Made by a program: the position numbers and the translations under genes. A stretch of DNA of 39,320 bases from a virus: UHGV virus genome UHGV-0083030; one strand, written 5' to 3'. Below, piece after piece: positions 12,829-38,518 of this stretch (position 1 is its first letter; each line of letters begins with the position of its first letter). The notes under the pieces were generated by a model. The model saw nothing but the letters and a program-made list of their open reading frames with translations, searched no databases and had not been told where the DNA came from.

Positions 12829-13221
12829 ATGACAGCATTGAAAAATGCAAGGCATGAAAAATATGTGCAAAACTTAATAGCAGGAATGAGCCAGCGTCAG
12901 GCTTACATAGAGGCGTTCCCGCACTCCAAGAAGTGGAAAGATGCGACCGTAGACAGCAAGGCGAGCGTGCTTCTATCTGGAAAGGTTTTGGAAAGGTATA
13001 ACGAAATTCAGGAAGAGCAGAAAAAGGAGGCTCTTTTGACACGTTGGGAGAAGAGGAAGATACTTGCTGATCTTGCAAGGAATGAGGAGAATACACCGTC
13101 TGACAGGACGAAAGCAATTGACACGGATAATAAGATGGAGAATGAATACGTAAACAAGGTGGAAATATCCCGGCCTGTGGATGATACGATAAAGGAATTG
13201 GAAGAGTATTTCAGTGGATAG
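12829..13221 (+). CDS. terS: Terminase small subunit
   Basis: Start ATG 12829 (GAGGAGG 8 nt upstream) in the frame of track ORF 12754-13221; HEKYVQNLIAGMSQRQAYIEAF matches the terminase small subunit HTH pattern (..F..EYL..G.N.TQAAI.AGYS); directly upstream of TerL. Confidence 0.65.
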   Translation: MTALKNARHEKYVQNLIAGMSQRQAYIEAFPHSKKWKDATVDSKASVLLSGKVLERYNEIQEEQKKEALLTRWEKRKILADLARNEENTPSDRTKAIDTDNKMENEYVNKVEISRPVDDTIKELEEYFSG

Positions 13222-14485
13222 GGAAGAAATAAAAAAGCTTATAAAAAATGAGCCGTACAAAATAGGGCATTTCGTTGGATTCAAAGACCTAACTGTTCTG
13301 CATAATGAGTGGCTAAGGTCTTTTTTGTATGCAGATAAAGACCAGACGATTCTTGCGCACCGTGGGTCTTATAAGACAACAGATTTGTCACTATTCCTCG
13401 CAATCCATACAGTCATTAAACCGAATGAGAATGTAATGTTCTTTCGAAAAACGGACACGGACGTCAGCGAGGTGATCCGGCAGACTCAAAAGATTTTGCA
13501 CAGTGGCTGCATGCAGGAGATTGCGTCGGTACTGTACTATGGCCGAGATATCAAATTTTTAAAGGAAACAGATTCTGAAATACATACAGACTTATGCACA
13601 TCCACAAAAGGTGCAAGTCAGATAGTTGGGCTTGGTATCGGAACTTCTATCACAGGAAAGCATGCGGACGTTGTTGTGACAGACGATATTGTGAACCTGA
13701 AAGACCGTATCAGTAAAGCGGAGCGGGAGCGTACAAAAATTCAGTATATGGAACTCCAGAATATCTGCAACCGTGGCGGAAGATTCATCAATACGGGAAC
13801 GCCCTGGCATAAAGAGGATGCCATTTCCTTTATGCCGAATGTGAGGAGATATGATTGTTATTCTACGGGGCTGATCACGCGGGAAAAACTGGAAGAACTG
13901 CGGCAGTCCATGAGCGACAGCCTGTTTGCGGCAAACTATGAGCTGAAGCATATCGCAGATAAAGACGCAATGTTTAAAGAGCCGAAGTTTACCACAGAAA
14001 CAGAACTGATTTACGGCGGGATTGCTCATATAGATGCTGCCTATGACGGTGAGGACGGCACAGCGTTCACCATTCTGCATGAGCTGAGGGATGGCCGCAT
14101 CGTTGGATTTGGAAAACGGTGGGATAAGCACGTAGATGATTGCCTGACTGAAATCGGCATGTACCACAAAGAGCTGTGGGCAGGAATGATTGAGTGTGAG
14201 GATAATGCAGACAAGGGTTATCTCCGGAAAGAAATTAGCAAAAGGGGGATTCCGGTGCATGGATATCACGAAAGCATGAACAAATTTGTGAAGATATCCA
14301 CGTATTTGAGGAAGAACTGGAGGCGGATTATCTGGCTGGAGGATACGGACCCGGAATACATCAATGAAATTCTGGACTATAACGAGTTTGCTGACCATGA
14401 CGATTCGCCGGACAGTGCTGCGAGCCTACTTAGGCACATGGAAAGCAGGCCAAGGCTGAACAGAAATATCAAGGGAGGGCTGTAA
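13214..14485 (+). CDS. terL: Terminase large subunit
   Basis: 423 aa; Walker A-like AHRGSYKTT, Walker B VVVTDD, C-terminal nuclease-like region; GTG start overlapping terS end; followed by portal. Confidence 0.85.
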   Translation: MDREEIKKLIKNEPYKIGHFVGFKDLTVLHNEWLRSFLYADKDQTILAHRGSYKTTDLSLFLAIHTVIKPNENVMFFRKTDTDVSEVIRQTQKILHSGCMQEIASVLYYGRDIKFLKETDSEIHTDLCTSTKGASQIVGLGIGTSITGKHADVVVTDDIVNLKDRISKAERERTKIQYMELQNICNRGGRFINTGTPWHKEDAISFMPNVRRYDCYSTGLITREKLEELRQSMSDSLFAANYELKHIADKDAMFKEPKFTTETELIYGGIAHIDAAYDGEDGTAFTILHELRDGRIVGFGKRWDKHVDDCLTEIGMYHKELWAGMIECEDNADKGYLRKEISKRGIPVHGYHESMNKFVKISTYLRKNWRRIIWLEDTDPEYINEILDYNEFADHDDSPDSAASLLRHMESRPRLNRNIKGGL

Positions 14486-14486
14486 G

Positions 14487-15854
14487 ATGCAGAACTTATA
14501 TAGACTGCCGTCAGAGGAAGAACTGACGGACAACAAACTGAATGAATTTATTGCCAGGCATGCTGCTGAATGTTCCTTCCGGTACAGACAGTTGCAAGAT
14601 GCCTACGAAACGGAGTATCCAATCTTCTTAGAACCGGCAAAGCCAAAATGGAAACCGGACAATCGGATTGCTGTGAATTTTGCCAAGTATATCGTGGATA
14701 CGATGAATGGGTTCTTTATCGGGCATCCGATCAAGCTGCAGGTGGATGATGACGATGAGGCCGTCAAGAACTATGTGGAACTGCTGGATCAGTACAACGA
14801 TCAGGATGACAACAATGCGGAGTTGTCTAAGATCTGCAGCATCTTTGGAAAAGGGTATGAAATGTATTACGTGGATGAAGAGAGCAACATCTGCATCACT
14901 TATTTGAGCCCGATGGATGCTTTTATGGTCTATGACGATTCTGTTTTGCAGAAAGAGCGTTATTTCGTGAGGTTGTACGTCGATGCAGATCAGATTCTGC
15001 ACGGCAGCCTGTCTGACGAAGAAAAAGTACGCTGGTTCACAATCAAAGGTAAGCTTGTCTGGGATGAAGATGAGAAGCTGCATGGCTTTGATGGAGTGCC
15101 TGCTACAGAATATGTGGAGAACAAGGAGCGAATGGGAATCTTCGAGCCGGTGCTGACGATGATTAATGCTTATAACAAGGCAATCAGCGAAAAAGCAAAT
15201 GATGTGGACTATTTTGCGGATGCCTACCTGAAGATCTTAGGACCTCCGTTAGACGAAGATGAACTGAAGCATGTAAGAGATGACCGAATCATCAATTTTG
15301 ACGGAGATGCGGAGCAGGTGATTGTGGATTTCTTACAGAAGCCGGACGGAGACACAACGCAGGAACATCTGATTGATCGATTAGAGAAGCTTATCTTCCA
15401 GATTAGCATGGTTGCGAATATTTCGGATGAGAACTTCGGAACGAGCTCTGGAATTGCTATGAAGTATAAGCTGCAGGCCATGAGCAACTTGGAAAAGACC
15501 AAGGAGCGGAAATTCACTTCCGGAATGAACCGGAGATACCGGCTAATCTTTTCAAATCCGGTCTCTGGAATGAAAAAAGATGCCTGGGTGAAGATTCATC
15601 CGCATTTCACACCGAACTTCCCGGCAAACCTGCAGGAAGAAGCTGAAATTGCAAGGAATATAGATGGACTTGTGAGTCAGGAGACGCAGTTGGGTGTTCT
15701 TTCGATTGTAGATAACACAACGGAAGAGATCAAAAGAATGGATGATGAGAAGAAAGAGAGTTCCGGAACTTCTGATCTGACGAGGTTGTTCGGATTGAAT
15801 AACGATGGAACCGGTGGTGATGGAGATGGCACAGAAAATCGTACAGAAGAGTAA
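14487..15854 (+). CDS. Portal protein (SPP1 gp6-like)
   Basis: 455 aa; size, position after TerL and before MuF; acidic C-terminus; GGAGGG RBS. Confidence 0.8.
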   Translation: MQNLYRLPSEEELTDNKLNEFIARHAAECSFRYRQLQDAYETEYPIFLEPAKPKWKPDNRIAVNFAKYIVDTMNGFFIGHPIKLQVDDDDEAVKNYVELLDQYNDQDDNNAELSKICSIFGKGYEMYYVDEESNICITYLSPMDAFMVYDDSVLQKERYFVRLYVDADQILHGSLSDEEKVRWFTIKGKLVWDEDEKLHGFDGVPATEYVENKERMGIFEPVLTMINAYNKAISEKANDVDYFADAYLKILGPPLDEDELKHVRDDRIINFDGDAEQVIVDFLQKPDGDTTQEHLIDRLEKLIFQISMVANISDENFGTSSGIAMKYKLQAMSNLEKTKERKFTSGMNRRYRLIFSNPVSGMKKDAWVKIHPHFTPNFPANLQEEAEIARNIDGLVSQETQLGVLSIVDNTTEEIKRMDDEKKESSGTSDLTRLFGLNNDGTGGDGDGTENRTEE

Positions 15855-17418
15855 GAGCAGTACCGAATACTGGCGAAAAAGAGAAGAAGAGAACCTGAAA
15901 AAGAATCTTCTGACCGAAGAAGAGTATGTACAGCATATTCATGACATTCTGGACTATACCGCAGATCAGATCCAGAGAGAGATCAATGGATTCTATACCA
16001 AGTATGCTAGGCAGGAAGGTATTTCTCTTGCGGAGGCGAAGCGCCGGATCAAGTCCGCTGACGTGGAAGAATTTGCCCGGAAAGCGAAGAAGTATGTGAA
16101 AGAAAAGAACTTCTCCAAGCAGGCAAATGAGGAGATGCGTCTGTACAATGCCACCATGAAGATCAATCGCTTGGAACTGCTGAAAGCAAACATCGGTCTG
16201 GAGCTGGTTTCCGGGTTCGACGAGCTGCAAAAGTACAACGAGGAGATCCTGACGGACCGGACGAAAGAGGAACTGGAGCGTCAGGCCGGAATCCTTGGCG
16301 GAACAGTCCAGAACAATGAGAAGATGGTCAGCTCCATCGTCAACGGTTCTTTTCACAATGCGACCTATTCGGAGAGGATCTGGCTGTATCAAGACATGAT
16401 GAAGAATGAGCTGGACAAGCTCCTGAGGCAGGGGCTGATTCAGGGGAAGAATCCCAGACAGCTGGCGACACATCTTCAGAAGCTGTTTGGAACGTGCAAG
16501 TACGTGGCAGAGCGTCTGATGCGGACAGAGTTGGCAAGAGTCCAGATCGATGCACAGAAGCAGTCTTTTGAGAAGAACGGGTATGAGCAGTATACGTTCC
16601 TGTCGCTTGGAAGTGCCTGTGGTTCTTGCAAAGCTCTGAACGGAAAGCATTTCGACGTGTCGAAAATGATGCCGGGAGACAATGCTCCACCGATCCACCC
16701 GAACTGCCGGTGCTCTGTGTCTGCTTATATGGACGATGACAGCTATAATGAGTGGCTGGATACGTACAAAGAGCATGGATTGAGCTATGAGGAGTGGATG
16801 GAGAGAAATTCAGTTGCAAAGAGTGGTAGAAGTGATATAATTGAACCAGAAGATGAAGGGGCTTTATTTACTGATCCAAGGAATATGTCTAATAATTTGG
16901 AGGAGATGTCCTTACAAGTAAATAATTTTCTTGATTCATTAAATCTTCCAAGTAGCAAATGGAGTGGAATAACAAAGGTTGTAGGACGTAAAGATTTACG
17001 AAGTGCTATTGGAAGAACCAAATCTAATGGTGATATATTGTTGAGATCGGGTGCTGGAGTTAAAACAGTAATTCACGAACATTTGCATACGAGATCTGTT
17101 TTGTATAATACGAGAGCATATCGAAAATATAAATGGTTTGAAGAAAATGCATGTGAGATGCTTGCAGAAGAGTTATGTAATAAATATGGAGTGAAATATA
17201 CGAGGACATATAAAAGAGTGGTGGAGCCACTAAGAGATATAGCAAGAACTACGAACTTTTATGTGTCAGACTATGATTTCGCAGTGGACTATTTTAATGC
17301 AGGCATTGAAAATAGAGAACAATGGCTGATAGAATTAGTAAATAAAGAAAAGGATTTATCCGTAAAGGAGCGCATACTCAAATCAATAGAGGAGATTAGA
17401 AATGTCAAAAAGCCTTAA
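15805..17418 (+). CDS. Minor head protein, MuF/SPP1 gp7 family, fused to a low-GC C-terminal HExxH (putative zinc metallopeptidase/effector) domain
   Basis: 537 aa; MuF hallmark NGKHFDVSKMMPGDNAPPIHPNCRCSV (about 16640-16720); the C-terminal ~200 aa (from ~16800) are clearly AT-richer and contain VIHEHLHT (HExxH, 17074-17088); start could also be ATG 15820 or 15826. Confidence 0.85.
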   Translation: MEPVVMEMAQKIVQKSKSSTEYWRKREEENLKKNLLTEEEYVQHIHDILDYTADQIQREINGFYTKYARQEGISLAEAKRRIKSADVEEFARKAKKYVKEKNFSKQANEEMRLYNATMKINRLELLKANIGLELVSGFDELQKYNEEILTDRTKEELERQAGILGGTVQNNEKMVSSIVNGSFHNATYSERIWLYQDMMKNELDKLLRQGLIQGKNPRQLATHLQKLFGTCKYVAERLMRTELARVQIDAQKQSFEKNGYEQYTFLSLGSACGSCKALNGKHFDVSKMMPGDNAPPIHPNCRCSVSAYMDDDSYNEWLDTYKEHGLSYEEWMERNSVAKSGRSDIIEPEDEGALFTDPRNMSNNLEEMSLQVNNFLDSLNLPSSKWSGITKVVGRKDLRSAIGRTKSNGDILLRSGAGVKTVIHEHLHTRSVLYNTRAYRKYKWFEENACEMLAEELCNKYGVKYTRTYKRVVEPLRDIARTTNFYVSDYDFAVDYFNAGIENREQWLIELVNKEKDLSVKERILKSIEEIRNVKKP

Positions 17419-17584
17419 AGAGCTAGAAGAAATGATTTTTGAAGGAGATAGAACGGATGAGGAATGGCTGAGAGTAGAAAAGGAAGTAGAAGAAGCATGG
17501 GGATATTCAAGTGATGAGGAAAAGCGTGACTTTGAAGAAAGCGGTGCTGGGGATATGCTTGGTCAAATAATCGAATTTTTGTGA
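17402..17584 (+). CDS. Small acidic protein (60 aa), candidate cognate partner/immunity of the MuF C-terminal domain
   Basis: Overlaps the MuF stop; same low-GC island; very acidic (MSKSLKELEEMIFEGDRTDEEWLRVEKEVEEAWGYSSDEEKRDFEESG...); followed by a strong terminator. Confidence 0.5.
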   Translation: MSKSLKELEEMIFEGDRTDEEWLRVEKEVEEAWGYSSDEEKRDFEESGAGDMLGQIIEFL

Positions 17585-17611
17585 TTTATTATAGATTGAA
17601 AATAAGACAGA

Positions 17612-17645
17612 ATACCACTGACCATAATGGTCGGTGGTATTTTTA
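17612..17645 (+). terminator. Rho-independent terminator (12-bp stem AUACCACUGACC/GGUCGGUGGUAU, one mismatch, + U tract)
   Basis: Inverted repeat 17612-17623 / 17629-17640, loop ATAAT, then TTTT. Confidence 0.65.
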
Positions 17646-17669
17646 TGCGCATTTTTAGGAGGTAAGACC

Positions 17670-17936
17670 ATGAAAACAAATCCTGAAACACAAGAAAGAT
17701 GGATTGAAGCGGTAAAAAGCTGTGGACAGTCCTTGATTGATAATGCTGAAGAAATTGCTGGAGATTATGAGTATGAAACAGGAGTAGATATCACAATTTC
17801 GCTCAAGCCGAACGAAATTGCGGAAATAAAAGTTGCGACAACCTTTATCCCGAAAACCAGAAAAGGGGAAGGAATAGTGACTCTTCCAAATGGAACAACA
17901 GATAATAAATACCGATTCTTTAATGAGGAGAGATAA
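17670..17936 (+). CDS. Hypothetical 88-aa protein (MKTNPETQERWIEAVKSCGQSLIDNAEEIAGDYEYETG...)
   Basis: Start ATG 17670 with AGGAGG 7 nt upstream, in the frame of track ORF 17634-17936; in the low-GC island. Confidence 0.5.
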   Translation: MKTNPETQERWIEAVKSCGQSLIDNAEEIAGDYEYETGVDITISLKPNEIAEIKVATTFIPKTRKGEGIVTLPNGTTDNKYRFFNEER

Positions 17937-17937
17937 A

Positions 17938-18225
17938 GTGAATATACCAAAGTCAGTCAAAATTCTGTATAAGAATTATAAGATCGAAAGACGTGAGGAA
18001 CTGCACGATGGAGCAGAAGAGTTGTATGGACAGATTCAGTATCTTGAAGGAAAGATTCTGCTTCGGGAGGGTGTGTCTGTGGAACAGCAGGAATCGACAC
18101 TTTGCCATGAAATGCTGCACGGACTTGATGACATGTATTCTATTGGCTTGAAAGAAAAGCAAGTAGAAAAGCTTGGAAATGCATTGTATATGTTGATTCG
18201 GGACAATCCGGAGATTTTCAGATAG
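17938..18225 (+). CDS. Minimal ImmA/IrrE-like (DUF955-type) HExxH metallopeptidase-like protein, 95 aa
   Basis: GTG 17938 right after the previous stop with GAGGAG 8 nt upstream (track ORF 17890-18225); ...GVSVEQQESTLCHEMLHGL... matches the ImmA pattern (..s.e.qrFtlAHELGH); low-GC island. Confidence 0.5.
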   Translation: MNIPKSVKILYKNYKIERREELHDGAEELYGQIQYLEGKILLREGVSVEQQESTLCHEMLHGLDDMYSIGLKEKQVEKLGNALYMLIRDNPEIFR

Positions 18226-18237
18226 GAGGCGAGATTC

Positions 18238-18309
18238 ATGGCAACATCAACCATTAATATTTTAATCATCTGCATCGCCATCATTATTCTGGCAAGGACA
18301 GGACGATGA
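18238..18309 (+). CDS. 23-aa hydrophobic peptide (MATSTINILIICIAIIILARTGR)
   Basis: ATG 18238 with GGAGG 9 nt upstream; ATGA overlap with next ORF; very short, speculative. Confidence 0.25.
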   Translation: MATSTINILIICIAIIILARTGR

Positions 18310-18569: not shown

Positions 18570-18857
18570 TTGATTGAGGTAAGCGTGAGGCTGGATGGAA
18601 TTACGATATCCGGCCATGCAAATTATGCACCGGAAGGATCCGACGTGGTATGTGCTGCGATTACGGTCCTGACGCAGACGCTGATCCAGTCGTTAGAAGA
18701 CTTATCAGCGGACAAAATTGAATACGAAATGTCACCCGGATGGTTTGATATAAAATGCAGGAATCTGTCAGAGGAAGGTTGTCTTCTGGTGGATTCCTTT
18801 TTCATTGGCATCTGTATGGTGTCCTATGAATTTCCGGAGTGTGTCCGGATTGTGTAA
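18570..18857 (+). CDS. prp: Prp-family cysteine protease (ribosomal-processing cysteine protease homolog; phage prohead protease for scaffold/capsid N-terminal trimming)
   Basis: 95 aa; ISGHANYAPEGSDVVCAAITVL carries the conserved His and Cys dyad context of Prp/DUF464; TTG start with AAGGAG upstream; lies immediately before scaffold and capsid genes whose N-termini carry the Prp cleavage motif. Confidence 0.75.
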   Translation: MIEVSVRLDGITISGHANYAPEGSDVVCAAITVLTQTLIQSLEDLSADKIEYEMSPGWFDIKCRNLSEEGCLLVDSFFIGICMVSYEFPECVRIV

Positions 18858-18985
18858 CGGGTGTGTCCGAAATGACGTAAAACTATGATTCGACGGAATG
18901 CCCTGGGCTTCAGTGAATGGGGTGGGCCAGAAAGGATAGATGTATGAAACACATGAACAACTTTTATGGTGGTTGGAGAATTCCA

Positions 18986-19636
18986 ATGACCAATTTGCAG
19001 CTGTTTGCGGAAGGTGATGGAGACGACGGCGGATCCGGAGATGGAAACGGTGACGGTACCGGAACAGGGGATGGAAATGGCGAAGGAAACAATGGAAATG
19101 GTTCGATGTCATTTGACGACTTCCTGAAAGGGGAAGGAAATCAGGCAGAGTTTGACCGCAGAGTCCAGAAAGCAGTCAAGACTGCAGTGACCAATGCACA
19201 GGAGAAATGGCAGGCACTGACAGATGACAAACTGTCGGAAGCGGAGAAACTGGCGAAGATGACCAAGGAAGAGAAGACGGAGTATGAAATGAACAAGCTG
19301 AAAAAGCAGCTCGCAGATCTTCAGAAGCAGTCAAATCGTTCCGATATGGCAAAGACTGCAAGAAAGATGCTTCAGGATGAAGAGATTAACCTTCCAGATG
19401 AATTGCTTGGACATCTGATCACAGACGATGCTGATGGAACAAAGAAAGCGGTAGAGTCTTTTGCGAAGCTGTTTAAAGAGGCAGTTCTGGCCGAAGTAAA
19501 GCAGACTTTAAAGGGAAAAACTCCAAGAGCAGGTTCAGGTGGCAAGGGAACTATGACAAAAGAACAGATTCTGGCAATTAAGAATCCGTCAGAGAGACAG
19601 AAACTGATTGCTGAAAATCTGGAATTATTTCAATAG
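18986..19636 (+). CDS. Scaffolding protein with Prp-cleavable leader (MTNLQLFA|EG...)
   Basis: Start set to ATG 18986 (GGAG 8 nt upstream) in the frame of track ORF 18917-19636; Gly/Asp-rich low-complexity segment then coiled-coil-like helical region with lysine-rich C-terminus; position between prp and capsid. Confidence 0.7.
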   Translation: MTNLQLFAEGDGDDGGSGDGNGDGTGTGDGNGEGNNGNGSMSFDDFLKGEGNQAEFDRRVQKAVKTAVTNAQEKWQALTDDKLSEAEKLAKMTKEEKTEYEMNKLKKQLADLQKQSNRSDMAKTARKMLQDEEINLPDELLGHLITDDADGTKKAVESFAKLFKEAVLAEVKQTLKGKTPRAGSGGKGTMTKEQILAIKNPSERQKLIAENLELFQ

Positions 19637-19654: not shown

Positions 19655-20863
19655 ATGAATAAGAATAGAAAATTCGGTTTACAGATTTTTGCAGCTCCGG
19701 ACAACATGACCGGAACAGCACAGGTTCAGACAAGAGCGAGAGAAATTGATTTTGTAACATCTTTTAGCAAAAACTTACAGGCGTTGCTGGATGTTATGGG
19801 TATTACCCGGATGATCAAAAAGGAGAATGGTTCTACTTTAAAGACCAAAAAGGTTACCGGAACACTGCAGAGCGGTGCGGTAGCGGAAGGAGATGAAATT
19901 CCGCTGTCTCAGTACCAGGTGGAAGAAGTGCCGTTCGATACAATCCGCATCGAAAAGTACAGAAAGGGAGTATCTCTGGAAGCGATTGCAGAAAAAGGCT
20001 ATGATGCTGCAGTTCAGTCCACGGATGATGAATTCAAGTCTGATCTGATCAATGTGGTAACTGGAAAATTCTACACGCAGCTGAAAGCAGGCTCTCTTGT
20101 GGGGCACGAATCCACCTGGCAGATGGCTGTTGCTATGGCGATCGGAAAAGTTGTGGACAAGTTCCAGAAAATGAAGAGAACTGCAACTGGTGTGGCGCTC
20201 TGGGTGAACACACTGGACGTGTATAAATACATCGGTGCTGCTGACATTACTCTTCAGACCGCTTTTGGATTTAAGTATGTGACGGATTTCATGGGAGCAG
20301 ATGTCGTGTTTGTTTCTTCTGAGATTCCGGAGAATGTGGTTGTAGCGACTCCGCTGAACAACCTGGTTGCATACTACGTAGATCCAGGCGACTCTGAGTT
20401 TGTGAAAGCAGGACTTCAGTATACAACTGATACTGAAACAGGCTTCATCGGATTCCATGCGCAGGGAACTTATGAGAGAGCAATCTCTGATATGTTTGCA
20501 ATCATGGGCCTGAGACTGTTCTGCGAGTATCAGGATGCAATTGCTTATATCGCAGTTGGCGGAGCTGATACACAGACACTTGGAACCCTGACCGTAACAT
20601 CCGAAGCAGGAAGCGAGACAGGAAAGACAAAGCTGTCTGTATCAGAACAGCTGCAGTCTCCGAGAAACTGTTGGAAGTATAAGGATGCGGCATCTGCTAC
20701 TTCCGTGACTTACGGAATGGATGTGAAAAACTGGAGCAAATGGGATGGAGAATCCGAGATTAGCTCCACGGCAACACACCACATTACTGTAGTGGAATGT
20801 GATCAGAACTACAAAGCCGTGAAGTCCGGTGATGTGGCTGTTACAGTCAATGCTGGAGATTAA
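19655..20863 (+). CDS. Major capsid protein with Prp-cleavable leader (...KFGLQIFA|APDN)
   Basis: 402 aa; position after scaffold; N-terminal LQIFA motif like L27 and staphylococcal phage 80alpha capsid leaders; possible C-terminal Ig-like decoration domain. Confidence 0.8.
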   Translation: MNKNRKFGLQIFAAPDNMTGTAQVQTRAREIDFVTSFSKNLQALLDVMGITRMIKKENGSTLKTKKVTGTLQSGAVAEGDEIPLSQYQVEEVPFDTIRIEKYRKGVSLEAIAEKGYDAAVQSTDDEFKSDLINVVTGKFYTQLKAGSLVGHESTWQMAVAMAIGKVVDKFQKMKRTATGVALWVNTLDVYKYIGAADITLQTAFGFKYVTDFMGADVVFVSSEIPENVVVATPLNNLVAYYVDPGDSEFVKAGLQYTTDTETGFIGFHAQGTYERAISDMFAIMGLRLFCEYQDAIAYIAVGGADTQTLGTLTVTSEAGSETGKTKLSVSEQLQSPRNCWKYKDAASATSVTYGMDVKNWSKWDGESEISSTATHHITVVECDQNYKAVKSGDVAVTVNAGD

Positions 20864-34331: not shown

Positions 34332-35888
34332 CTAAATACGCGGGATTCGAGGCTTTATAGTTAGTTCAAAGGACGCATCATCTTTGTACCCTTTTTTATT
34401 TTTCTTTAATTTCTTATATTCTACACTATGTAATAGCATCTTCAAAGCTTTATTCTTCTCGGCAACAGATAAATCCCAATAGCAGGAGAGCAGACCTTTA
34501 CAGGATGGAATAAAACTATGGATATGTGCATCGTTATTTTTCTCGTATTCGATCTCTTTTTGTAAGTCGAGGATTTTATCGTCCACGGCATTAATTCGTT
34601 CCTGAAGGACGTGGGAGCGTTCCAGGAAGACTTCAGAAGAGTATACGCCCTGCTCCAAAAGATTGAAAAGGTTTTCTTTCTGAGAGAGAAGAGCAGACTT
34701 TTCTTTTTCAGTGGACTCCAGGAGATCTGTTAATTCTGGCACCTTGCTTTCAGGAGTAACATGATCTAATTCATAATCCTTTACCCATTCACTCAGCGCA
34801 TCGATGACGGAATGTTCCAGGAGATCCAGACTGCAGCCTACGGTCAGGCAGCCTTGCGTATTGCAGAGGATGGAATCATAGTCAGCACCATGCTTACTTC
34901 CGGATGGTGCGGCAGGACGCCGGAGCATTTTCTTTTTACACTGGCTGCACACAATCAATCCGGCCAGTGGATTTTTCACGCTGTACTGCTCCGGAAGTTT
35001 AGGTTTTCCTCTTCCAAGGTAGCTCTGTGCTTCCATCCAGACATCGTGATCAATGATACGAGGATGCTTGGCGTGGTATATTTCGTAATCATCGCATCGG
35101 GGACGCTTCTTCACTGGTTGACCGTCTTCCAATGCAGTAATACATTTTCTTCGACCGATTGCAACCATCTGGTCATATACCGGATTAGCCAACATTTCGC
35201 GGATCATACTGTCCGTCCATAATTTGCCGGAGCGTGTGAACATCTGGTGGTCATTCAGGTAGCGTCGGATTGTAGTTATGCCAACTCGGTCAGGTCCGGT
35301 GTAACGCGCATATACCAGTCGCACAATGGGAACCTCATCCTCTTCCAATGCAAGTGTCCATCCCTTTTCTTTTGAGAGCTTGAATCGGCGGAAACCATAA
35401 GGTGCTGCATTAAATGGCCATTTTCCTTCTTTGGCCGCTGCATAACGACCGGCCTGCATCCGGCGCTTGATGGTTTTATATTCCCGGCGTGACATGAATA
35501 ATCCGAACTCAAAGTATTCTTCATCGAATTCATTGGCAGGGTTGTAGACTTTGACTGGCGTTACGATCAGAGTATCCGTGTACTGGAATGCTCTTTGAAC
35601 AATGCCCTGATCGATGGTGTCGCCTCTGGCCAGACGTTCTACTTCCATAACCAGTACGCCTTTCCATTTGCCGGACTCCACTTCTGATAAGAGTTTTTGC
35701 ATTTCAGGACGGGCAGAAATAGAGTCACCAGAAACCACTTCACGGTAGATCGCAGTGATCGACAGATTCATCTGTTTGGCCAGATCCAGGAGTGTGCGCT
35801 CATGCCGTTCCAGGACATCTACGCCCATAGCTTCAAGAGCGGAATCACCACGGGATTTTCTCAGATAGATACAGTATTCATTTTTCAT
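34332..35888 (-). CDS. int: Large serine recombinase (phage integrase)
   Basis: 518 aa; N-terminal resolvase catalytic domain (YLRKSRGDS...), recombinase domain, zinc ribbon (CSQCKKKM...C..C), long coiled-coil C-terminus; GGAAGGTGA RBS. Confidence 0.9.
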   Translation of the reverse strand: MKNEYCIYLRKSRGDSALEAMGVDVLERHERTLLDLAKQMNLSITAIYREVVSGDSISARPEMQKLLSEVESGKWKGVLVMEVERLARGDTIDQGIVQRAFQYTDTLIVTPVKVYNPANEFDEEYFEFGLFMSRREYKTIKRRMQAGRYAAAKEGKWPFNAAPYGFRRFKLSKEKGWTLALEEDEVPIVRLVYARYTGPDRVGITTIRRYLNDHQMFTRSGKLWTDSMIREMLANPVYDQMVAIGRRKCITALEDGQPVKKRPRCDDYEIYHAKHPRIIDHDVWMEAQSYLGRGKPKLPEQYSVKNPLAGLIVCSQCKKKMLRRPAAPSGSKHGADYDSILCNTQGCLTVGCSLDLLEHSVIDALSEWVKDYELDHVTPESKVPELTDLLESTEKEKSALLSQKENLFNLLEQGVYSSEVFLERSHVLQERINAVDDKILDLQKEIEYEKNNDAHIHSFIPSCKGLLSCYWDLSVAEKNKALKMLLHSVEYKKLKKNKKGYKDDASFELTIKPRIPRI

Positions 35889-36148: not shown

Positions 36149-37333
36149 TTACTCATTTGTTTCGGGGAACGTAATAGAAGATATATCAGAATCTTCTTTA
36201 ATAAAAATGTTCATCCCTAAAATAGGATAATCTTTTAAAAGATTTGCACAACATTTTTGGCAAGGCGAATAGCCATTTTTTATAGCCGACACGATAGGTA
36301 ATTGGTTGTGCGATATTAATCCAGAACAATGTCTGTTTAAGTGGTACTTTTTGGTTGATTCAGAAGTCCAAACTATTAATTCCTGTTCAATAGATGTGCC
36401 AGTTATGCTGGAAAGCATAGGTACGTCTTGTGGATACAGAGAACAATGTCGATTTACTTCGGTATTTAAAGCATCTTGTATAGTAAAAAAAGGTTGCTTG
36501 TATTTGAAAAGATCCAATAGGAATAGTAATGATGCTAAACCATAGGTGTTCTTTCTTTGATTGAAATCAGTAATTAAGTTCTCGAGGCACTGGCTACTTT
36601 TATCGGAAAGACGTGTTTTGCTATGAGGAATATAATTATATACACGTCCACCATGTGCGGCAAGGTTTCGATATTCAAGACAAATAAAAAGTGTATCAGT
36701 TAATAGATTTACAATTGCGTCCATATGTTTAATATCTTTTGGAAGACCATACATTTTTGATGCCAAATCTACTTTTTGAGGTTCTTTGAATAGACGGACA
36801 AAATTGACCAATGTACTTAAAAATACGCCTTTGAAAAGAACCCAAGGAGGCACGCAGTTATATGTATCACGATAGTATTTAATAGGATTTTTATCGCTGC
36901 ATTTTGCATTTTTACGAAGCACATCGAGAATACTATTAAGAGAAAAACGGGGATCTTTAATTTTTCTATCTCGATAATTTTTAAATTGTAAATATTGTTC
37001 AGGCGATGTACCGAAGTTTCTTGCAACAATTTCAGCAGTAACAGCACGAAGGTGTTCTTCTAGATCTAGCATTGCAATCATAATAGAGTTGCGAAGAACG
37101 TGATCCAATTGGTACAAGGAAAAAAGTTGTTCAAAAGAAGTCCCTTCCTTATATCGCTTATTACCATTTCCATCGGTAATAATAAATGGTTCCTTATAGC
37201 TGTTTACAATATTATAATAGCCGTATGTTTGTAAATATGAGCAAGCTCTTTCCATATCTTCAACTTTTAGACCTTGCTTTTGCAATTTTTCTAGTTGTTC
37301 AAGTTCTGTTGTATATTCTATTTTTTCTTTCAT
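36149..37333 (-). CDS. Abi_2 family (AbiD/AbiF-like) abortive infection protein
   Basis: Start set to MKEKIEYTTELEQLEKLQKQGLKVEDMERACSYLQTYGYYNIVNSYKEPF..., which matches the Abi_2 N-terminal consensus (MKEK...LL..RGL......A...L..i.YYRLs.Y); ~394 aa; low GC; own promoter. Confidence 0.8.
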   Translation of the reverse strand: MKEKIEYTTELEQLEKLQKQGLKVEDMERACSYLQTYGYYNIVNSYKEPFIITDGNGNKRYKEGTSFEQLFSLYQLDHVLRNSIMIAMLDLEEHLRAVTAEIVARNFGTSPEQYLQFKNYRDRKIKDPRFSLNSILDVLRKNAKCSDKNPIKYYRDTYNCVPPWVLFKGVFLSTLVNFVRLFKEPQKVDLASKMYGLPKDIKHMDAIVNLLTDTLFICLEYRNLAAHGGRVYNYIPHSKTRLSDKSSQCLENLITDFNQRKNTYGLASLLFLLDLFKYKQPFFTIQDALNTEVNRHCSLYPQDVPMLSSITGTSIEQELIVWTSESTKKYHLNRHCSGLISHNQLPIVSAIKNGYSPCQKCCANLLKDYPILGMNIFIKEDSDISSITFPETNE

Positions 37334-37342
37334 AAATTTCAC

Positions 37343-37384
37343 CATAAACAAAAAGAGCCTCGAGACAACTCTCAAAGGCTCTTT
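37343..37384 (-). terminator. Intrinsic terminator-like hairpin + U-tract on the minus strand, between the Abi promoter and the Abi start codon
   Basis: AAAGAGCCU/AGGCUCUUU 9-bp stem (37352-37360 / 37376-37384) with inner GAGA/UCUC stem, followed by UUUUUGUUU running into the ATG. Confidence 0.5.
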
Positions 37385-37422
37385 CGTGACCGGACACCAG
37401 TCATTCACTAATTGCAATTAGT

Positions 37423-37502: not shown

Positions 37503-37958
37503 TCATATCATTTCAGTGACCATAAGATTTGGAATAAAGTAAATTATGTAGTTGTCAACAGTAGTGTATATCCCGTACTTATCTCGATAGCATTCGATAC
37601 ATTCTTCCAGAAATTCATCTGTGACTTCCAAAAATTCTGCAATCTCATACCGGTTCCGGCAACCGTGTTCATAGGCTTCGATCAGCCCCGCGAGTCCGAT
37701 CAGGCGATTATATCCGTGCAAGCGTGCCTGACGCTCCTGTTTCCGGTTCTGGATAGATTCCATATCTAAGATATTTCCAACAGTCGTATAATGATGCCCC
37801 ATTTCCTCTGCCAGTACACAGGTCTTTTCCGTTGTATTCATATCTTTTCTTAAATAAATATCTTTGCCTTTTAATCGTCCGTCGTAAGTCTTGAAAGGAC
37901 GTTCCTTTATGGAAATACCTTCGGCATTGGCTTCATCTAGTAAAGCATCGTATTCCAT
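37503..37958 (-). CDS. ImmA/IrrE-family (DUF955) metallopeptidase-like protein with a variant motif (AEEMGHH rather than HExxH)
   Basis: Start ATG 37958 (GGAGG 8 nt upstream; the track start at 37967 is a GTG inside the RBS); directly downstream of, and co-oriented with, the XRE repressor as in ImmR/ImmA pairs; ...TCVLAEEMGHHYT aligns to the ImmA AHELGH segment with the first His replaced by Glu. Confidence 0.65.
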   Translation of the reverse strand: MEYDALLDEANAEGISIKERPFKTYDGRLKGKDIYLRKDMNTTEKTCVLAEEMGHHYTTVGNILDMESIQNRKQERQARLHGYNRLIGLAGLIEAYEHGCRNRYEIAEFLEVTDEFLEECIECYRDKYGIYTTVDNYIIYFIPNLMVTEMI

Positions 37959-38010
37959 GGTCAACACCTCCAGTGTAATAGTAAATGATTAGCTGTCCGA
38001 TAAAAAGAAC

Positions 38011-38463
38011 TTAGTCCAGCATATCCTCATCGTCCTGACGTTCTTCAGGTGTGAATGGTTTTGTGCTTTCATGTGCTGCGTTTGGCATGAGATCCTCTTC
38101 CATTTGCTGATTGGTAAGAAGAGTAGTTGTATATATAGAACATTTTTTCTTGTTCTGATCGTTTAACTTCCGGTAGGAGAGAACCAGATCGCGTTCATCT
38201 TTTGTCTGGAAATGACTCTCATTAATATCGTTAGATGATTCCGGTACTTCCATGGGAACATCAAAACCCATAAGCCATAAAGGATTGACGTTTAAAATTC
38301 GAGCCATTTTTCCGCTGCTCAGATTAGAAGGTGAATGAGATCCGTTCAAGTATTGACTGATAGATGCTTTGTTCACCCCGGAAGCATTGGATAATTCTTG
38401 AGGAATCATGTTTGCGTTTGCCAGAGCTAAAGAAAGTCTTTGCGCTGTAATTGGGTTTTTCAT
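38011..38463 (-). CDS. XRE-family HTH repressor (CI/ImmR-like)
   Basis: Start ATG 38463 (AGGAGG 8 nt upstream) in the frame of track ORF 38011-38514; ITAQRLSLALANANMIPQELSNASGVNKASISQYLNG is an XRE HTH; acidic C-terminal tail; divergent from the cro-like gene. Confidence 0.75.
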   Translation of the reverse strand: MKNPITAQRLSLALANANMIPQELSNASGVNKASISQYLNGSHSPSNLSSGKMARILNVNPLWLMGFDVPMEVPESSNDINESHFQTKDERDLVLSYRKLNDQNKKKCSIYTTTLLTNQQMEEDLMPNAAHESTKPFTPEERQDDEDMLD

Positions 38464-38489
38464 ATGAGGTACCTCCTGTTGATAAATGA

Positions 38490-38518
38490 AGTATAACATA
38501 ATAATGTTAAACAATCAA
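38490..38518 (-). promoter_or_regulatory. Candidate repressor promoter (-35 TTGATT, 17-nt spacer, -10 TATACT) overlapping a GTTAAAC half-site
   Basis: Reverse complement reads TTGATTgtttaacattattatgtTATACT; GTTAAAC at 38506-38512 lies in the spacer. Confidence 0.4.

What the first reader, a model, noticed from the sequence alone, without database searches (positions are those of the whole stretch)
15805..17584. MuF minor-head protein fused to a low-GC HExxH domain, with a tiny acidic partner gene
The first ~330 residues are a standard MuF/gp7 head morphogenesis domain (NGKHF...PPIHPNCRCS). From about nt 16800 the gene becomes markedly AT-richer and encodes a ~200-aa extension carrying VIHEHLHT (HExxH). 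A 60-aa highly acidic ORF overlaps its stop, and a strong terminator closes the unit. This matches the architecture of MuF-borne polymorphic-toxin/effector domains with adjacent immunity-like genes in temperate Firmicutes phages. Here the cargo domain looks like a zincin/ImmA-type peptidase rather than a nuclease or ART. The compositional break suggests a recent domain swap.
Basis: partly seen in the sequence, partly recalled or inferred. Interest (0 to 1): 0.7.

Follow-up and report, generated by a model that had tools for sequence, protein, structure and literature searches.

The report
Phage head protein carrying swappable protease cargo
A temperate gut-Clostridia phage has its MuF minor head protein fused to an uncatalogued zinc-protease-like domain that always travels with a tiny acidic partner gene as a swappable cassette, a new example of the known 'MuF polymorphic toxin' design.

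Summary
ORF 15805-17418 encodes 537 aa: a MuF/SPP1-gp7 core, a linker, then a roughly 190-aa C-terminal domain with HEHLH (H424/E425/H428) and E446/E447. GC falls from 0.50 to 0.34 at about nt 16798. A 60-aa ORF (pI 4.1) overlaps the stop codon by 17 nt, and a strong hairpin with a T-tract follows.

Across 107 related loci, the partner sits directly downstream in 28 of 28 assessable carriers. It is absent from the 76 loci that lack this domain. Its divergence tracks the C-domain (rho 0.84), not the MuF core (rho 0.22).

Phages with 59-98% identical MuF cores carry at least 12 other cargo classes in the same slot, or none. These include ART, PBECR nuclease and papain-fold toxin. An intact orphan partner beside a catalytic-core-deleted remnant survives in Massilistercora chromosomes.

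Best reading: a capsid-carried, probably injected, zinc peptidase effector plus a cognate inhibitor (immunity) protein. It is a new member of a known kind. Activity, toxicity and binding are untested.

The parts
15805..17418 (+). MuF minor head protein with a C-terminal HExxH cargo domain (537 aa). An alternative start at 15826 (M8) is likely.
   Evidence: ORF listing. phrog_115 'minor head protein' E 9e-113. Homologues align from M8.
15805..16713 (+). MuF / SPP1-gp7-type core, ending at the HPNCRC motif (residues 299-304).
   Evidence: Pfam PF04233 E 1.8e-15. TIGR01641 E 2.6e-23. GC 0.498. Homologous at DNA level to relatives that carry other cargo.
16714..16857 (+). Junction and linker (..SAYMDDDSYNEWLDTYKEHGLSYEEW..SGRSDIIEPEDE). 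This is the left-hand boundary of the swappable cassette.
   Evidence: DNA homology to relatives with other cargo ends at varying points between 16700 and 16841. The junction motif is shared by all cargo classes. The residues are disordered in the AF2 model, with pLDDT below 50. P0005 matches the window closely up to ..IIEPEDE and then diverges.
16858..17418 (+). C-terminal gluzincin-like zinc-metallopeptidase domain with no curated family. HEHLH lies at nt 17074-17088 and E446/E447 at nt 17140-17145.
17306..17335 (+). Sigma-70-like promoter candidate inside the cargo ORF, 66 nt upstream of the partner gene (TTGAAA-18-TAGAAT with a TG-extended -10).
   Evidence: 10 of 12 consensus match. Only 2% of 160-nt windows in the sequence reach this score. 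Relatives carry perfect 12 of 12 promoters at the equivalent place. Function is inferred only.
17389..17394 (+). Ribosome-binding site GAGGAG of the partner gene, 7 nt before its ATG.
   Evidence: Read directly from the sequence.
17402..17584 (+). Partner gene: a 60-aa, highly acidic, four-helix protein. It is the putative cognate inhibitor or immunity protein of the peptidase domain.
   Evidence: Overlaps the MuF stop codon by 17 nt. pI 4.09, charge -13.5. AF2 pLDDT 94.9, four helices. 77 homologous clusters, all unannotated. Present in 28 of 28 assessable carrier loci and in none of the 76 loci lacking the domain. Its divergence tracks the C-domain, rho 0.84.
17612..17645 (+). Intrinsic-terminator hairpin with T-tract (ATACCACTGACC ATAAT GGTCGGTGGTAT TTTT). 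This is the right-hand boundary of the cassette.
   Evidence: The 76-nt stretch 17585-17660 containing it folds at -25.3 kcal/mol, z -6.2. Homology to L013, L014 and L019 resumes at 17625-17632, inside the hairpin. A conserved CCACC..GGTGG-T-tract hairpin occurs once per locus in 96 of 108 sources.
16701..17631 (+). The swappable cargo cassette as delimited by comparison: junction, peptidase domain, partner and the terminator left arm.
   Evidence: blastn against L014 (83% identical flanks, different content) and against L013/L001. GC 0.364 against 0.45 for the whole window.

Best explanation
This is a MuF-type polymorphic toxin (effector) cassette in the head-morphogenesis operon of a temperate siphophage of gut Clostridia (Lachnospiraceae/Oscillospiraceae).

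Proposed mechanism, step by step:
1. The N-terminal MuF/gp7 core places a few copies of the protein in the capsid at the portal. This rests on established knowledge of SPP1 gp7 and Mu gpF.
2. Its roughly 190-aa C-terminal domain is an active HExxH...E (gluzincin-like) zinc metallopeptidase. Being tethered to MuF, it would be carried in the virion and released into the next host cell with the DNA. This step is inferred.
3. There it would cleave one or more host proteins, acting either as a growth-inhibiting toxin or as a host- or defence-manipulating effector. The substrate is unknown.
4. The 60-aa acidic four-helix protein encoded immediately downstream is its cognate binding partner. It would neutralise the basic peptidase domain in the producing cell and in lysogens, acting as an immunity protein or inhibitor. 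This is inferred.
5. The partner is translationally coupled to MuF by a 17-nt overlap. It probably also has its own promoter inside the 3' end of the cargo ORF and its own terminator, so a prophage could express it without the late operon.

The cargo, partner and terminator form a low-GC cassette. It is exchanged among phages between a conserved junction after the MuF HPNCRC motif and a conserved terminator hairpin.

Shown here: the architecture, the motif conservation, the fold similarity, the strict linkage and co-divergence of domain and partner, and cassette polymorphism at this slot.

Inferred only: catalysis, packaging and ejection, toxicity, physical inhibition, and promoter activity.
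For: - MuF core lies next to the SPP1-type portal (E 7e-124) and the terminase.
- The phage is temperate: serine recombinase, ImmA(M78)/HTH_3 module and an Abi_2 moron.
- H424, E425 and H428 are invariant and E446/E447 at least 90% conserved across 84-91 homologues. HExxH is present in 151 of 153 members.
- The family has 326 representatives at 50% identity. The domain is terminal, with a median tail of 3 aa. 79 of 84 full-length carriers have a Phage_Mu_F, Phage_min_cap2 or VG15 N-terminus.
- Polymorphism at the slot: at least 12 cargo classes on MuF cores 59-98% identical, including ADPrib_exo_Tox, PBECR2, Gln_amidase/Tox-PL1 and DUF6883. Most have their own small downstream ORF. Short MuFs without cargo also occur.
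- Cassette boundaries are defined by an 83%-identical relative with different content.
- Partner linkage: 28 of 28 assessable carriers, none of the 76 loci lacking the domain. Starting from the partner, it lies directly after Phage_Mu_F or Phage_min_cap2 genes.
- Partner identity tracks the C-domain (Spearman 0.84), whereas the C-domain does not track the MuF core (0.22).
- Charge complementarity: domain pI 9.2, partner pI 4.1.
- An orphan intact partner sits beside a remnant whose catalytic core is deleted, among housekeeping genes and a tRNA cluster in Massilistercora, on at least 23 contigs.
- Partner paralogues occur in tandem or fused.
- Perfect TTGACA-17-TATAAT promoters are rare in 0.9 Mb of loci. 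Two of the few unique sites lie inside the 3' end of a MuF cargo ORF just upstream of the partner gene: one in this family, one in an unrelated HEATH class.
- Literature: MuF toxins with downstream immunity genes are known, and 20% of them carry metallopeptidase domains (PMC5576092). Experimentally confirmed cases are Apk2 toxins with binding immunity proteins (PMC12226406).
Against: - No experiment or complex model supports binding or inhibition.
- The domain reaches no curated toxin family: Tox-MPTase4 scores 16 bits against a 25-bit cut-off.
- Among the carriers examined, the domain appears only on MuF-type proteins. Classical polymorphic-toxin domains are shared with other delivery systems.
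- The partner's fold is a generic helical bundle with no informative neighbours.
- A toxin made late in a lytic cycle does not obviously need immunity.
- The window's own promoter candidate matches only 10 of 12 positions in AT-rich DNA. The region as a whole has no excess of promoter-like sites (8 found, 6.2 expected).
- The orphan partner could be a recent decay product rather than a selected immunity gene.
Confidence: 0.68

Rival explanations
1. The HExxH domain is a self-processing or assembly peptidase rather than an effector. It would cleave MuF itself, for example in the conserved ..IIEPEDE.. linker, or other head proteins during maturation or after ejection. The acidic partner would be a chaperone or timing inhibiting factor that keeps it silent until assembly.
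For: Zincin domains in phage and plasmid polyvalent proteins have been proposed to act as autoprocessing peptidases (PMC5512222). The domain was found almost only on MuF-type proteins. The linker carries a motif conserved among the closer subfamilies and is predicted to be disordered.
Against: Closely related phages make heads with short MuFs lacking any extension, or with ART, nuclease or papain-fold cargo in the same slot. The domain is therefore dispensable for morphogenesis. The phage already has a Prp-type head protease at 18570-18857. An intact partner retained without the peptidase, and the embedded promoters, fit immunity better than an assembly chaperone.
Confidence: 0.15
2. The small acidic protein is an independent moron, for example a DNA-mimic anti-restriction or anti-defence protein. 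On this view it merely hitch-hikes next to the cargo domain and does not act on the peptidase.
For: It has an extreme negative charge (-13.5 over 60 aa) and a compact helical fold, typical of DNA mimics. It may have its own promoter and terminator. It occurs alone in a bacterial chromosome.
Against: It co-occurs perfectly and exclusively with this cargo type: 28 of 28 assessable carriers, none of the 76 loci lacking the domain. This holds across different MuF families and phage backbones. It is translationally coupled or within 4 nt of the MuF stop in the 12 viral-contig loci examined. Its divergence tracks that of the domain. In most sibling cargo classes the downstream small ORF differs.
Confidence: 0.1
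3. The extension is a catalytically inert structural or decoration domain of the minor head protein, and the HExxH motif is a relic.
For: No curated peptidase family matches above threshold. There is no sequence match to any solved structure.
Against: H, E and H are invariant. The downstream EE pair and about 15 other positions are at least 90% conserved across proteins only 17-48% identical overall. That pattern indicates selection on an active site. The fold neighbours are active gluzincins.
Confidence: 0.04

Closest known systems
MuF polymorphic toxins of temperate phages (Jamet et al. 2017, PMC5576092; Zhang et al. 2012, PMC3482391). Experimentally studied members are the Apk2 (p)ppApp-synthetase toxins with IapK/Aph1 immunity (PMC12226406).
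   Same: N-terminal MuF domain in the head module next to the portal, in a temperate Firmicutes phage. Variable C-terminal enzymatic domain. Small cognate gene immediately downstream. The same slot holds ART, nuclease and papain-fold toxins in sibling phages. Metallopeptidase cargo was already counted in about 20% of MuF toxins.
   Different: This cargo domain and its partner belong to families with no Pfam, NCBIfam or PADLOC model. No metallopeptidase MuF toxin has been characterised experimentally in the papers I could search. The domain was not seen on non-MuF delivery modules.
Gluzincin metallopeptidases (thermolysin M4, LTA4 hydrolase and aminopeptidase N M1).
   Different: Sequence identity is only 8-13%. 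It is a much smaller stand-alone catalytic module, with no N-terminal beta domain of the M1 or M4 type. Activity and metal binding are untested.
Tox-MPTase4 (PF15640) and the other Tox-MPTase1-5 zincin toxins of polymorphic toxin systems.
   Same: A small zincin-like HExxH domain at the extreme C-terminus of a delivery protein. This is the only Pfam family giving any signal (E 0.012 for this protein, 2e-4 for two homologues).
   Different: The score is below the gathering threshold. Tox-MPTase4 is described on RHS, T6SS and T7SS toxins without a listed immunity protein, not on MuF.
Zincin-like MPTase domains of phage and plasmid polyvalent proteins (Iyer et al. 2017, PMC5512222).
   Same: Virion- or transfer-associated proteins carrying HExxH...E zincin modules. 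These are proposed to act as injected effectors or as autoprocessing peptidases.
   Different: Here the architecture is a simple two-domain one with a dedicated partner gene. Membership of any of the 12 polyvalent MPTase clades was not testable.

Membership tests
MuF polymorphic toxin family | N-terminal MuF (Phage_Mu_F / SPP1 gp7) domain | tested here: met
   PF04233 E 1.8e-15, 58 bits against a 29.6-bit cut-off. TIGR01641 82.5 bits against a 39.65-bit cut-off.
MuF polymorphic toxin family | Gene lies in the head module (terminase, portal, MuF, scaffold, capsid) of a temperate phage or prophage | tested here: met
   SPP1_portal lies immediately upstream, with the terminase before it. The scaffold-like ORF (homologous to loci with Pfam scaffold hits) and the putative major capsid ORF lie downstream; they were assigned by position and not scanned. 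Serine recombinase and ImmA/HTH lysogeny module are present.
MuF polymorphic toxin family | C-terminal extension is polymorphic among closely related MuF cores | tested here: met
   At least 12 unrelated extension classes, plus short forms, among 80 loci with 59-98% identical cores. The cassette is replaced in L014 between 83%-identical flanks.
MuF polymorphic toxin family | C-terminal domain is a recognised toxin domain shared with other polymorphic-toxin delivery families | tested here: not met
   Only a sub-threshold Tox-MPTase4 hit. 79 of 84 carriers are MuF-type, and no other delivery domain was seen. Sibling cassettes do carry recognised toxin domains.
MuF polymorphic toxin family | Cognate immunity gene immediately downstream | tested here: inconclusive
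   Genetic linkage is perfect (28 of 28) and the partner co-diverges with the domain. An orphan copy is retained. Protective function was not testable.
MuF polymorphic toxin family | C-terminal domain is toxic when expressed and is neutralised by the partner | not testable with these tools
   This needs expression assays.
Zincin / gluzincin metallopeptidases | HExxH motif plus a downstream Glu as third zinc ligand, both conserved | tested here: met
   H424, E425 and H428 are invariant; E446/E447 are at least 90% conserved. The spacing H428 to E447 is 19 residues.
Zincin / gluzincin metallopeptidases | Zincin catalytic fold | tested here: met
Zincin / gluzincin metallopeptidases | Zinc-dependent peptide-bond hydrolysis | not testable with these tools
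   This needs a biochemical assay.
Tox-MPTase4 (PF15640) | Score at or above the Pfam gathering threshold | tested here: not met
   16.0 bits against a 25-bit cut-off, E 0.012, with only 30 residues around HExxH aligned. 2 of 84 homologues reach E about 2e-4.
ImmA/IrrE (Peptidase_M78, PF06114) | Match to the M78 profile | tested here: not met
Moron (autonomous promoter-gene-terminator unit) for the partner gene | Own promoter upstream and own terminator downstream | tested here: inconclusive
   The terminator is strong. The window's promoter candidate matches 10 of 12 positions with an extended -10. Relatives have perfect consensus promoters at the equivalent place. No transcript data are available.

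The most novel reading that the evidence does not exclude
The region between the MuF core and a conserved CCACC..GGTGG-T-tract hairpin is a dedicated cargo slot in the head operon of gut-Clostridia siphophages. Its right arm reads GCTGGTGG, Chi-like, in some lineages. On this reading, low-GC cassettes of 'effector domain, embedded promoter, cognate inhibitor, terminator' are exchanged there by recombination between the two conserved flanks. This particular cassette would encode a previously undescribed family of virion-delivered gluzincin proteases that cleave a host regulator or defence protein on injection. Their 60-aa inhibitors would be retained by bacteria as orphan immunity against superinfecting phages.
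Probability: 0.25. Interest if true: 0.7.

Novelty: new member of a known kind. Interest (0 to 1): 0.5.

Why it matters
MuF polymorphic toxins are widespread in temperate phages, yet their physiological role is still open (PMC12226406). In the literature I could search, only the (p)ppApp-synthetase class has been studied experimentally.

This locus defines a large, uncurated metallopeptidase cargo family (326 clusters at 50% identity) and its dedicated 60-aa partner family (77 clusters), both in abundant human- and animal-gut Clostridia. The data give clean cassette boundaries, catalytic residues to mutate, natural negative controls (sibling phages with other cargo or none) and a natural orphan-immunity case.

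That makes several questions directly testable:
- Is a peptidase injected with phage DNA?
- What does it cleave?
- Does prophage- or chromosome-encoded immunity shape superinfection among gut bacteria?

The two families could also be turned into annotation models.

Tried and rejected
- Structure libraries: the Foldseek afdb50 library was unavailable. BFVD gave a single uncharacterised Siphoviridae hit.
There is therefore no complex model.
- Sequence searches against PDB: the full protein and the domain profile found nothing meaningful.
- Curated families: NCBIfam and PADLOC found nothing for the domain or the partner. Pfam found nothing for the partner.
- Hairpin: Rfam has no family for it.
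- Literature: the Jamet 2017 supplementary tables naming the metallopeptidase Pfam families are truncated in the held copy. I could not check whether this family was among their 20%.
- Genome scan: a broad domain alignment was too diverse for the genome-contig scan. The narrower alignment returned 9 loci.
- Terminator: the simple scanner missed the hairpin, so folding was used instead.
- 'ImmA-type peptidase': considered and rejected (no M78 signal, gluzincin fold neighbours).
- 'Low GC means a recent swap': considered and rejected (all cargo classes in relatives are AT-rich).
- 'The two downstream low-GC ORFs (17670-18225) belong to the cassette': considered and rejected. They are conserved in L014, which has different cargo.
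- Other HExxH cargo classes as the same family: rejected. hhalign probability is 10-37%, covering only the HExxH helix.
Full report
**Observation.** The window is a roughly 39-kb temperate siphophage or prophage of gut Clostridia.
- The only DNA-level relative in the phage collection is Dorea phage DO134P1, 77% identical over 17% of a 7-kb query.
- Lysogeny genes are a large serine recombinase (34332-35888, minus strand), an Abi_2 gene, an ImmA/IrrE Peptidase_M78 gene (37503-37967) and an HTH_3 repressor.
- The head module runs in this order: terminase 13214-14485; SPP1-type portal 14487-15854 (E 7e-124); the ORF in question 15805-17418; several small ORFs; a Prp-type cysteine protease 18570-18857. 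ORFs 18917-19636 and 19655-20863 follow at the scaffold and capsid positions; they were not scanned, and the scaffold-like ORF resembles homologous ORFs in related loci.

**The ORF and its neighbours.** The 537-aa ORF has a MuF/gp7 core: PF04233 E 1.8e-15, TIGR01641 E 2.6e-23, phrog_115 E 9e-113. The core ends at HPNCRC, residues 299-304.
- Homologues align from M8, so the real start may be nt 15826.
- GC is 0.498 in the core and 0.340 in the C-domain. GC3 is 0.65 against 0.27, and the sharpest drop is at nt 16798. Only 5% of equal-sized windows in the sequence are as AT-rich as the cassette.
- The 60-aa ORF 17402-17584 overlaps the MuF stop by 17 nt. It has a GAGGAG site 7 nt upstream, pI 4.09 and net charge -13.5.
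- The hairpin ATACCACTGACC-ATAAT-GGTCGGTGGTAT plus TTTT lies at 17612-17645. The 76-nt stretch 17585-17660 that contains it folds at -25.3 kcal/mol, z = -6.2. The simple scanner missed it.

All elements of the observation are therefore real.

**What the C-terminal domain is.**
- Curated libraries do not recognise it. Pfam gives only Tox-MPTase4 at 16 bits against a 25-bit cut-off. NCBIfam and PADLOC give nothing. PHROGs gives an unknown-function family, phrog_28652. No PDB sequence matches.
- An exhaustive profile search found 326 representatives at E up to 1e-3. The domain is terminal, with a median of 3 residues after it, and HExxH is present in 151 of 153 listed proteins.
- Of 84 full-length carriers, 41 have Phage_Mu_F, 34 have Phage_min_cap2 and 4 have VG15 N-termini.
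- In alignments of proteins only 17-48% identical overall, H424, E425, H428 and R504 are invariant. E446/E447, the SKWSG motif and about a dozen other positions are at least 90% conserved. The second His to E447 spacing of 19 residues is the gluzincin arrangement.

It is thus a zincin of gluzincin type, not ImmA/M78. The similarity is moderate.

**The slot is polymorphic.** I fetched 80 viral loci whose MuF cores are 59-98% identical to this one.
- Their C-terminal extensions fall into at least 12 unrelated classes, plus short MuFs with an 18-aa tail.
- Pfam labels several classes as bona fide toxin domains: ADPrib_exo_Tox (9e-10), PBECR2 nuclease (2e-8), papain-fold toxin 1/Gln_amidase (2e-13) and DUF6883 (5e-17).
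- Others are different HExxH classes (HEATH, HEMAH, HELFH, HEYKH). They share only the active-site helix with this family (hhalign probability 10-37%).
- Most classes have their own small ORF starting at -31 to +1 relative to the MuF stop.
- All extensions are AT-richer than their cores, 0.33-0.43 against 0.42-0.51.
- At DNA level, L014 is 83.5% identical up to window position 16700 and again from 17632. Between these points it carries a different extension and an HNH homing endonuclease.
- The near-identical phage L001/L013 (96%) matches through the partner gene. It then has 645 bp in place of 47 bp, encoding a partner paralogue and a zinc-ribbon ORF, and resumes at 17632.

The cassette is therefore 16701-17631. 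The two low-GC ORFs beyond it (17670-18225) belong to the backbone of this lineage.

**The partner.**
- In all 12 viral loci found with the C-domain (35-97% identity to it), a 58-93-aa acidic ORF (pI 4.1-4.7) starts at -16 to +4 nt from the MuF stop. The closer members share motifs (..D[EK]EW....E[ED]SGAGD[MT][LI]..).
- A profile search found 77 clusters, all 'hypothetical' and without Pfam domains. Hosts include Merdimonas, Hespellia, Mediterraneibacter, Massilistercora, Clostridium and Oscillospiraceae.
- Starting from the partner, it lies directly after a Phage_Mu_F gene (L093) or a Phage_min_cap2 gene (L095).
- HMM searches over all 107 fetched loci give: domain plus partner 28; domain only 1 (L106, whose contig ends 42 nt after the domain); partner only 2; neither 76. 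Some loci are duplicates, but at least 10 distinct lineages are represented.
- Pairwise identity of partners tracks that of the C-domains (Spearman 0.84). The C-domain does not track the MuF core (0.22, not significant). For example, L004 has C-domain 70%, partner 57%, core 23%, whereas L005 has 42%, 38% and 69%.
- The domain is basic (pI 9.2) and the partner strongly acidic.

**Evidence bearing on an immunity role.**
1. In Massilistercora timonensis-type chromosomes an intact 61-aa partner (60% identical to this one) sits among housekeeping genes, beside a six-tRNA cluster and a HicB gene. It is preceded by an 88-aa remnant made of the MuF junction, the first roughly 25 residues of the C-domain and its last 14 residues. 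The catalytic core is deleted. This arrangement is on at least 23 contigs.
2. Partner paralogues occur in tandem (L001) or fused (P0154), as immunity arrays do in polymorphic-toxin loci.
3. Perfect TTGACA-17-TATAAT promoters occur at only four or five unique places in 0.9 Mb of loci. Two of these lie inside the 3' end of a MuF cargo ORF just upstream of its small partner gene. One is in this family (L006, L007, L095, L102, L104, about 110 nt upstream). One is in the unrelated HEATH class (L024-L077).
4. The window has TTGAAA-18-TAGAAT with an extended -10, 66 nt upstream of the partner. It matches 10 of 12 positions, and only 2% of windows score as high.

Together with the terminator, this makes 'promoter, partner, terminator' a plausible autonomous unit that a prophage could express. 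These are consensus matches, not transcript data.

**Mechanism.** The best-supported reading (about 0.68) is a MuF polymorphic toxin or effector: a capsid-borne zinc peptidase, probably ejected with the DNA, with a cognate inhibitor.
- Packaging and ejection rest on what is known of SPP1 gp7 and Mu gpF, and on the published MuF-toxin model (PMC5576092, PMC3482391).
- Inhibition by binding follows the precedent of IapK for Apk2 toxins (PMC12226406).
- Rivals are an autoprocessing or assembly peptidase as proposed for polyvalent-protein zincins (PMC5512222), about 0.15; an unrelated DNA-mimic moron, about 0.10; and an inert domain, about 0.04.
- The first rival is weakened because sibling phages do without the domain. 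The second is weakened by the exclusive co-occurrence and co-divergence. The third is weakened by active-site conservation.

**Comparison with what is known, and novelty.** The architecture is that of MuF polymorphic toxins. Jamet et al. already reported that 20% of 191 MuF toxins carry metallopeptidase domains.
- Membership features met: MuF domain, head-module context, temperate phage, polymorphic C-terminus, tightly linked downstream gene.
- Feature not met: a toxin domain shared with other delivery families.
- Features untestable here: toxicity and neutralisation.

The cargo and partner families themselves are uncurated and, as far as I could search, uncharacterised. I rate this a new member of a known kind, with interest about 0.5. 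It is not surprising to a specialist, but it is a well-delimited and experimentally tractable system.

**Limits.**
- There is no complex model and no afdb50 search.
- The Jamet tables naming their metallopeptidase families were truncated.
- Counts over loci include near-duplicates.
- The p-value for the mirror test is nominal, because the pairs are not independent.

Noticed in passing
window 17612-17645; one site per locus in 96 of 108 sources (e.g. L027 6325, L007 4279, L093 4201, L097 5189): A sequence-conserved hairpin with T-tract, (T)ACCACCAGTC-loop-GRCCGGTGGT(A)TTTT, marks the 3' edge of the variable region after MuF. It appears whatever the cargo class, in very different phage backbones, and directly after the orphan partner gene. 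The core pairs CCACC/GGTGG are nearly invariant, inner pairs vary partly in a compensatory way, and an A.C mismatch is frequent. In some lineages the right arm reads GCTGGTGG, the E. coli Chi sequence (from memory). Rfam has no match. It may be both a terminator and a recombination anchor.
   Followed up: partly
L006 4401, L007 3945, L095 3864, L102 3401, L104 949; L024-L077 (e.g. L025 5333): Perfect sigma-70 consensus promoters (TTGACA-17-TATAAT) are embedded in the 3' end of two unrelated MuF cargo ORFs, just upstream of their small downstream genes. Only four or five unique perfect sites exist in 0.9 Mb of loci.
   Followed up: partly
L097 4742-5186 and L098 2263-2707 (Massilistercora-type chromosome): An orphan intact partner gene is preceded by a MuF-junction/C-domain remnant lacking the catalytic core. 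It lies next to a six-tRNA cluster and a HicB antitoxin gene, among housekeeping genes.
   Followed up: yes
window 17938-18225 (+), GTG start; homologues in L014 6478-6816, L005, L023, L033: A second small HExxH protein (95 aa..TLCHEMLHG..) matches phrog_1233 (E 7e-21) and phrog_13742 'peptidase'. It lies between the cassette and the Prp protease and is conserved in relatives regardless of cargo class. It has no Pfam or NCBIfam family.
   Followed up: partly
window 17670-17936 (+): An 88-aa ORF with a strong AGGAGG ribosome-binding site lies right after the terminator. It has no family in any library and is conserved in L001 and L014. It lies in a low-GC tract (17632-18225, GC 0.39) that is backbone rather than cassette.
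   Followed up: partly
window 18239-18307 (+): A tiny 22-codon ORF encodes a hydrophobic peptide (MATSTINILIICIAIIILARTGR). It lies between the small HExxH ORF and the 69-aa phrog_13199 ORF and overlaps the latter's start.
   Followed up: no
L001 4772-5400 (same contig as L013 5781-6425): The 96%-identical sister phage has a 645-bp insertion after the partner gene. It encodes an 82-aa partner paralogue (40% identical) and an 82-aa zinc-ribbon protein. A metagenomic protein, P0154, is a fusion of the two partner types.
   Followed up: partly
L014 4022-5418 and 5637-6203: In the 83%-identical relative the MuF reading frame is broken at the HPxCRC motif. This is either a frameshift or a sequencing error. 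Its slot holds a different extension followed by an HNH homing endonuclease.
   Followed up: no
window 36149-37417 (-), with 37503-38514 (-) and 34332-35888 (-): An Abi_2 (abortive-infection-like) gene sits in a second low-GC island (GC about 0.33). It lies between the serine recombinase and the ImmA(M78)/HTH_3 lysogeny switch and is a likely defence moron.
   Followed up: no
window 18570-18857 (+): A phage-encoded Prp-type cysteine protease (PF04327, E 7e-19) lies just upstream of the putative scaffold and capsid ORFs. It is conserved in nearly all related loci and is presumably the head-maturation protease.
   Followed up: no
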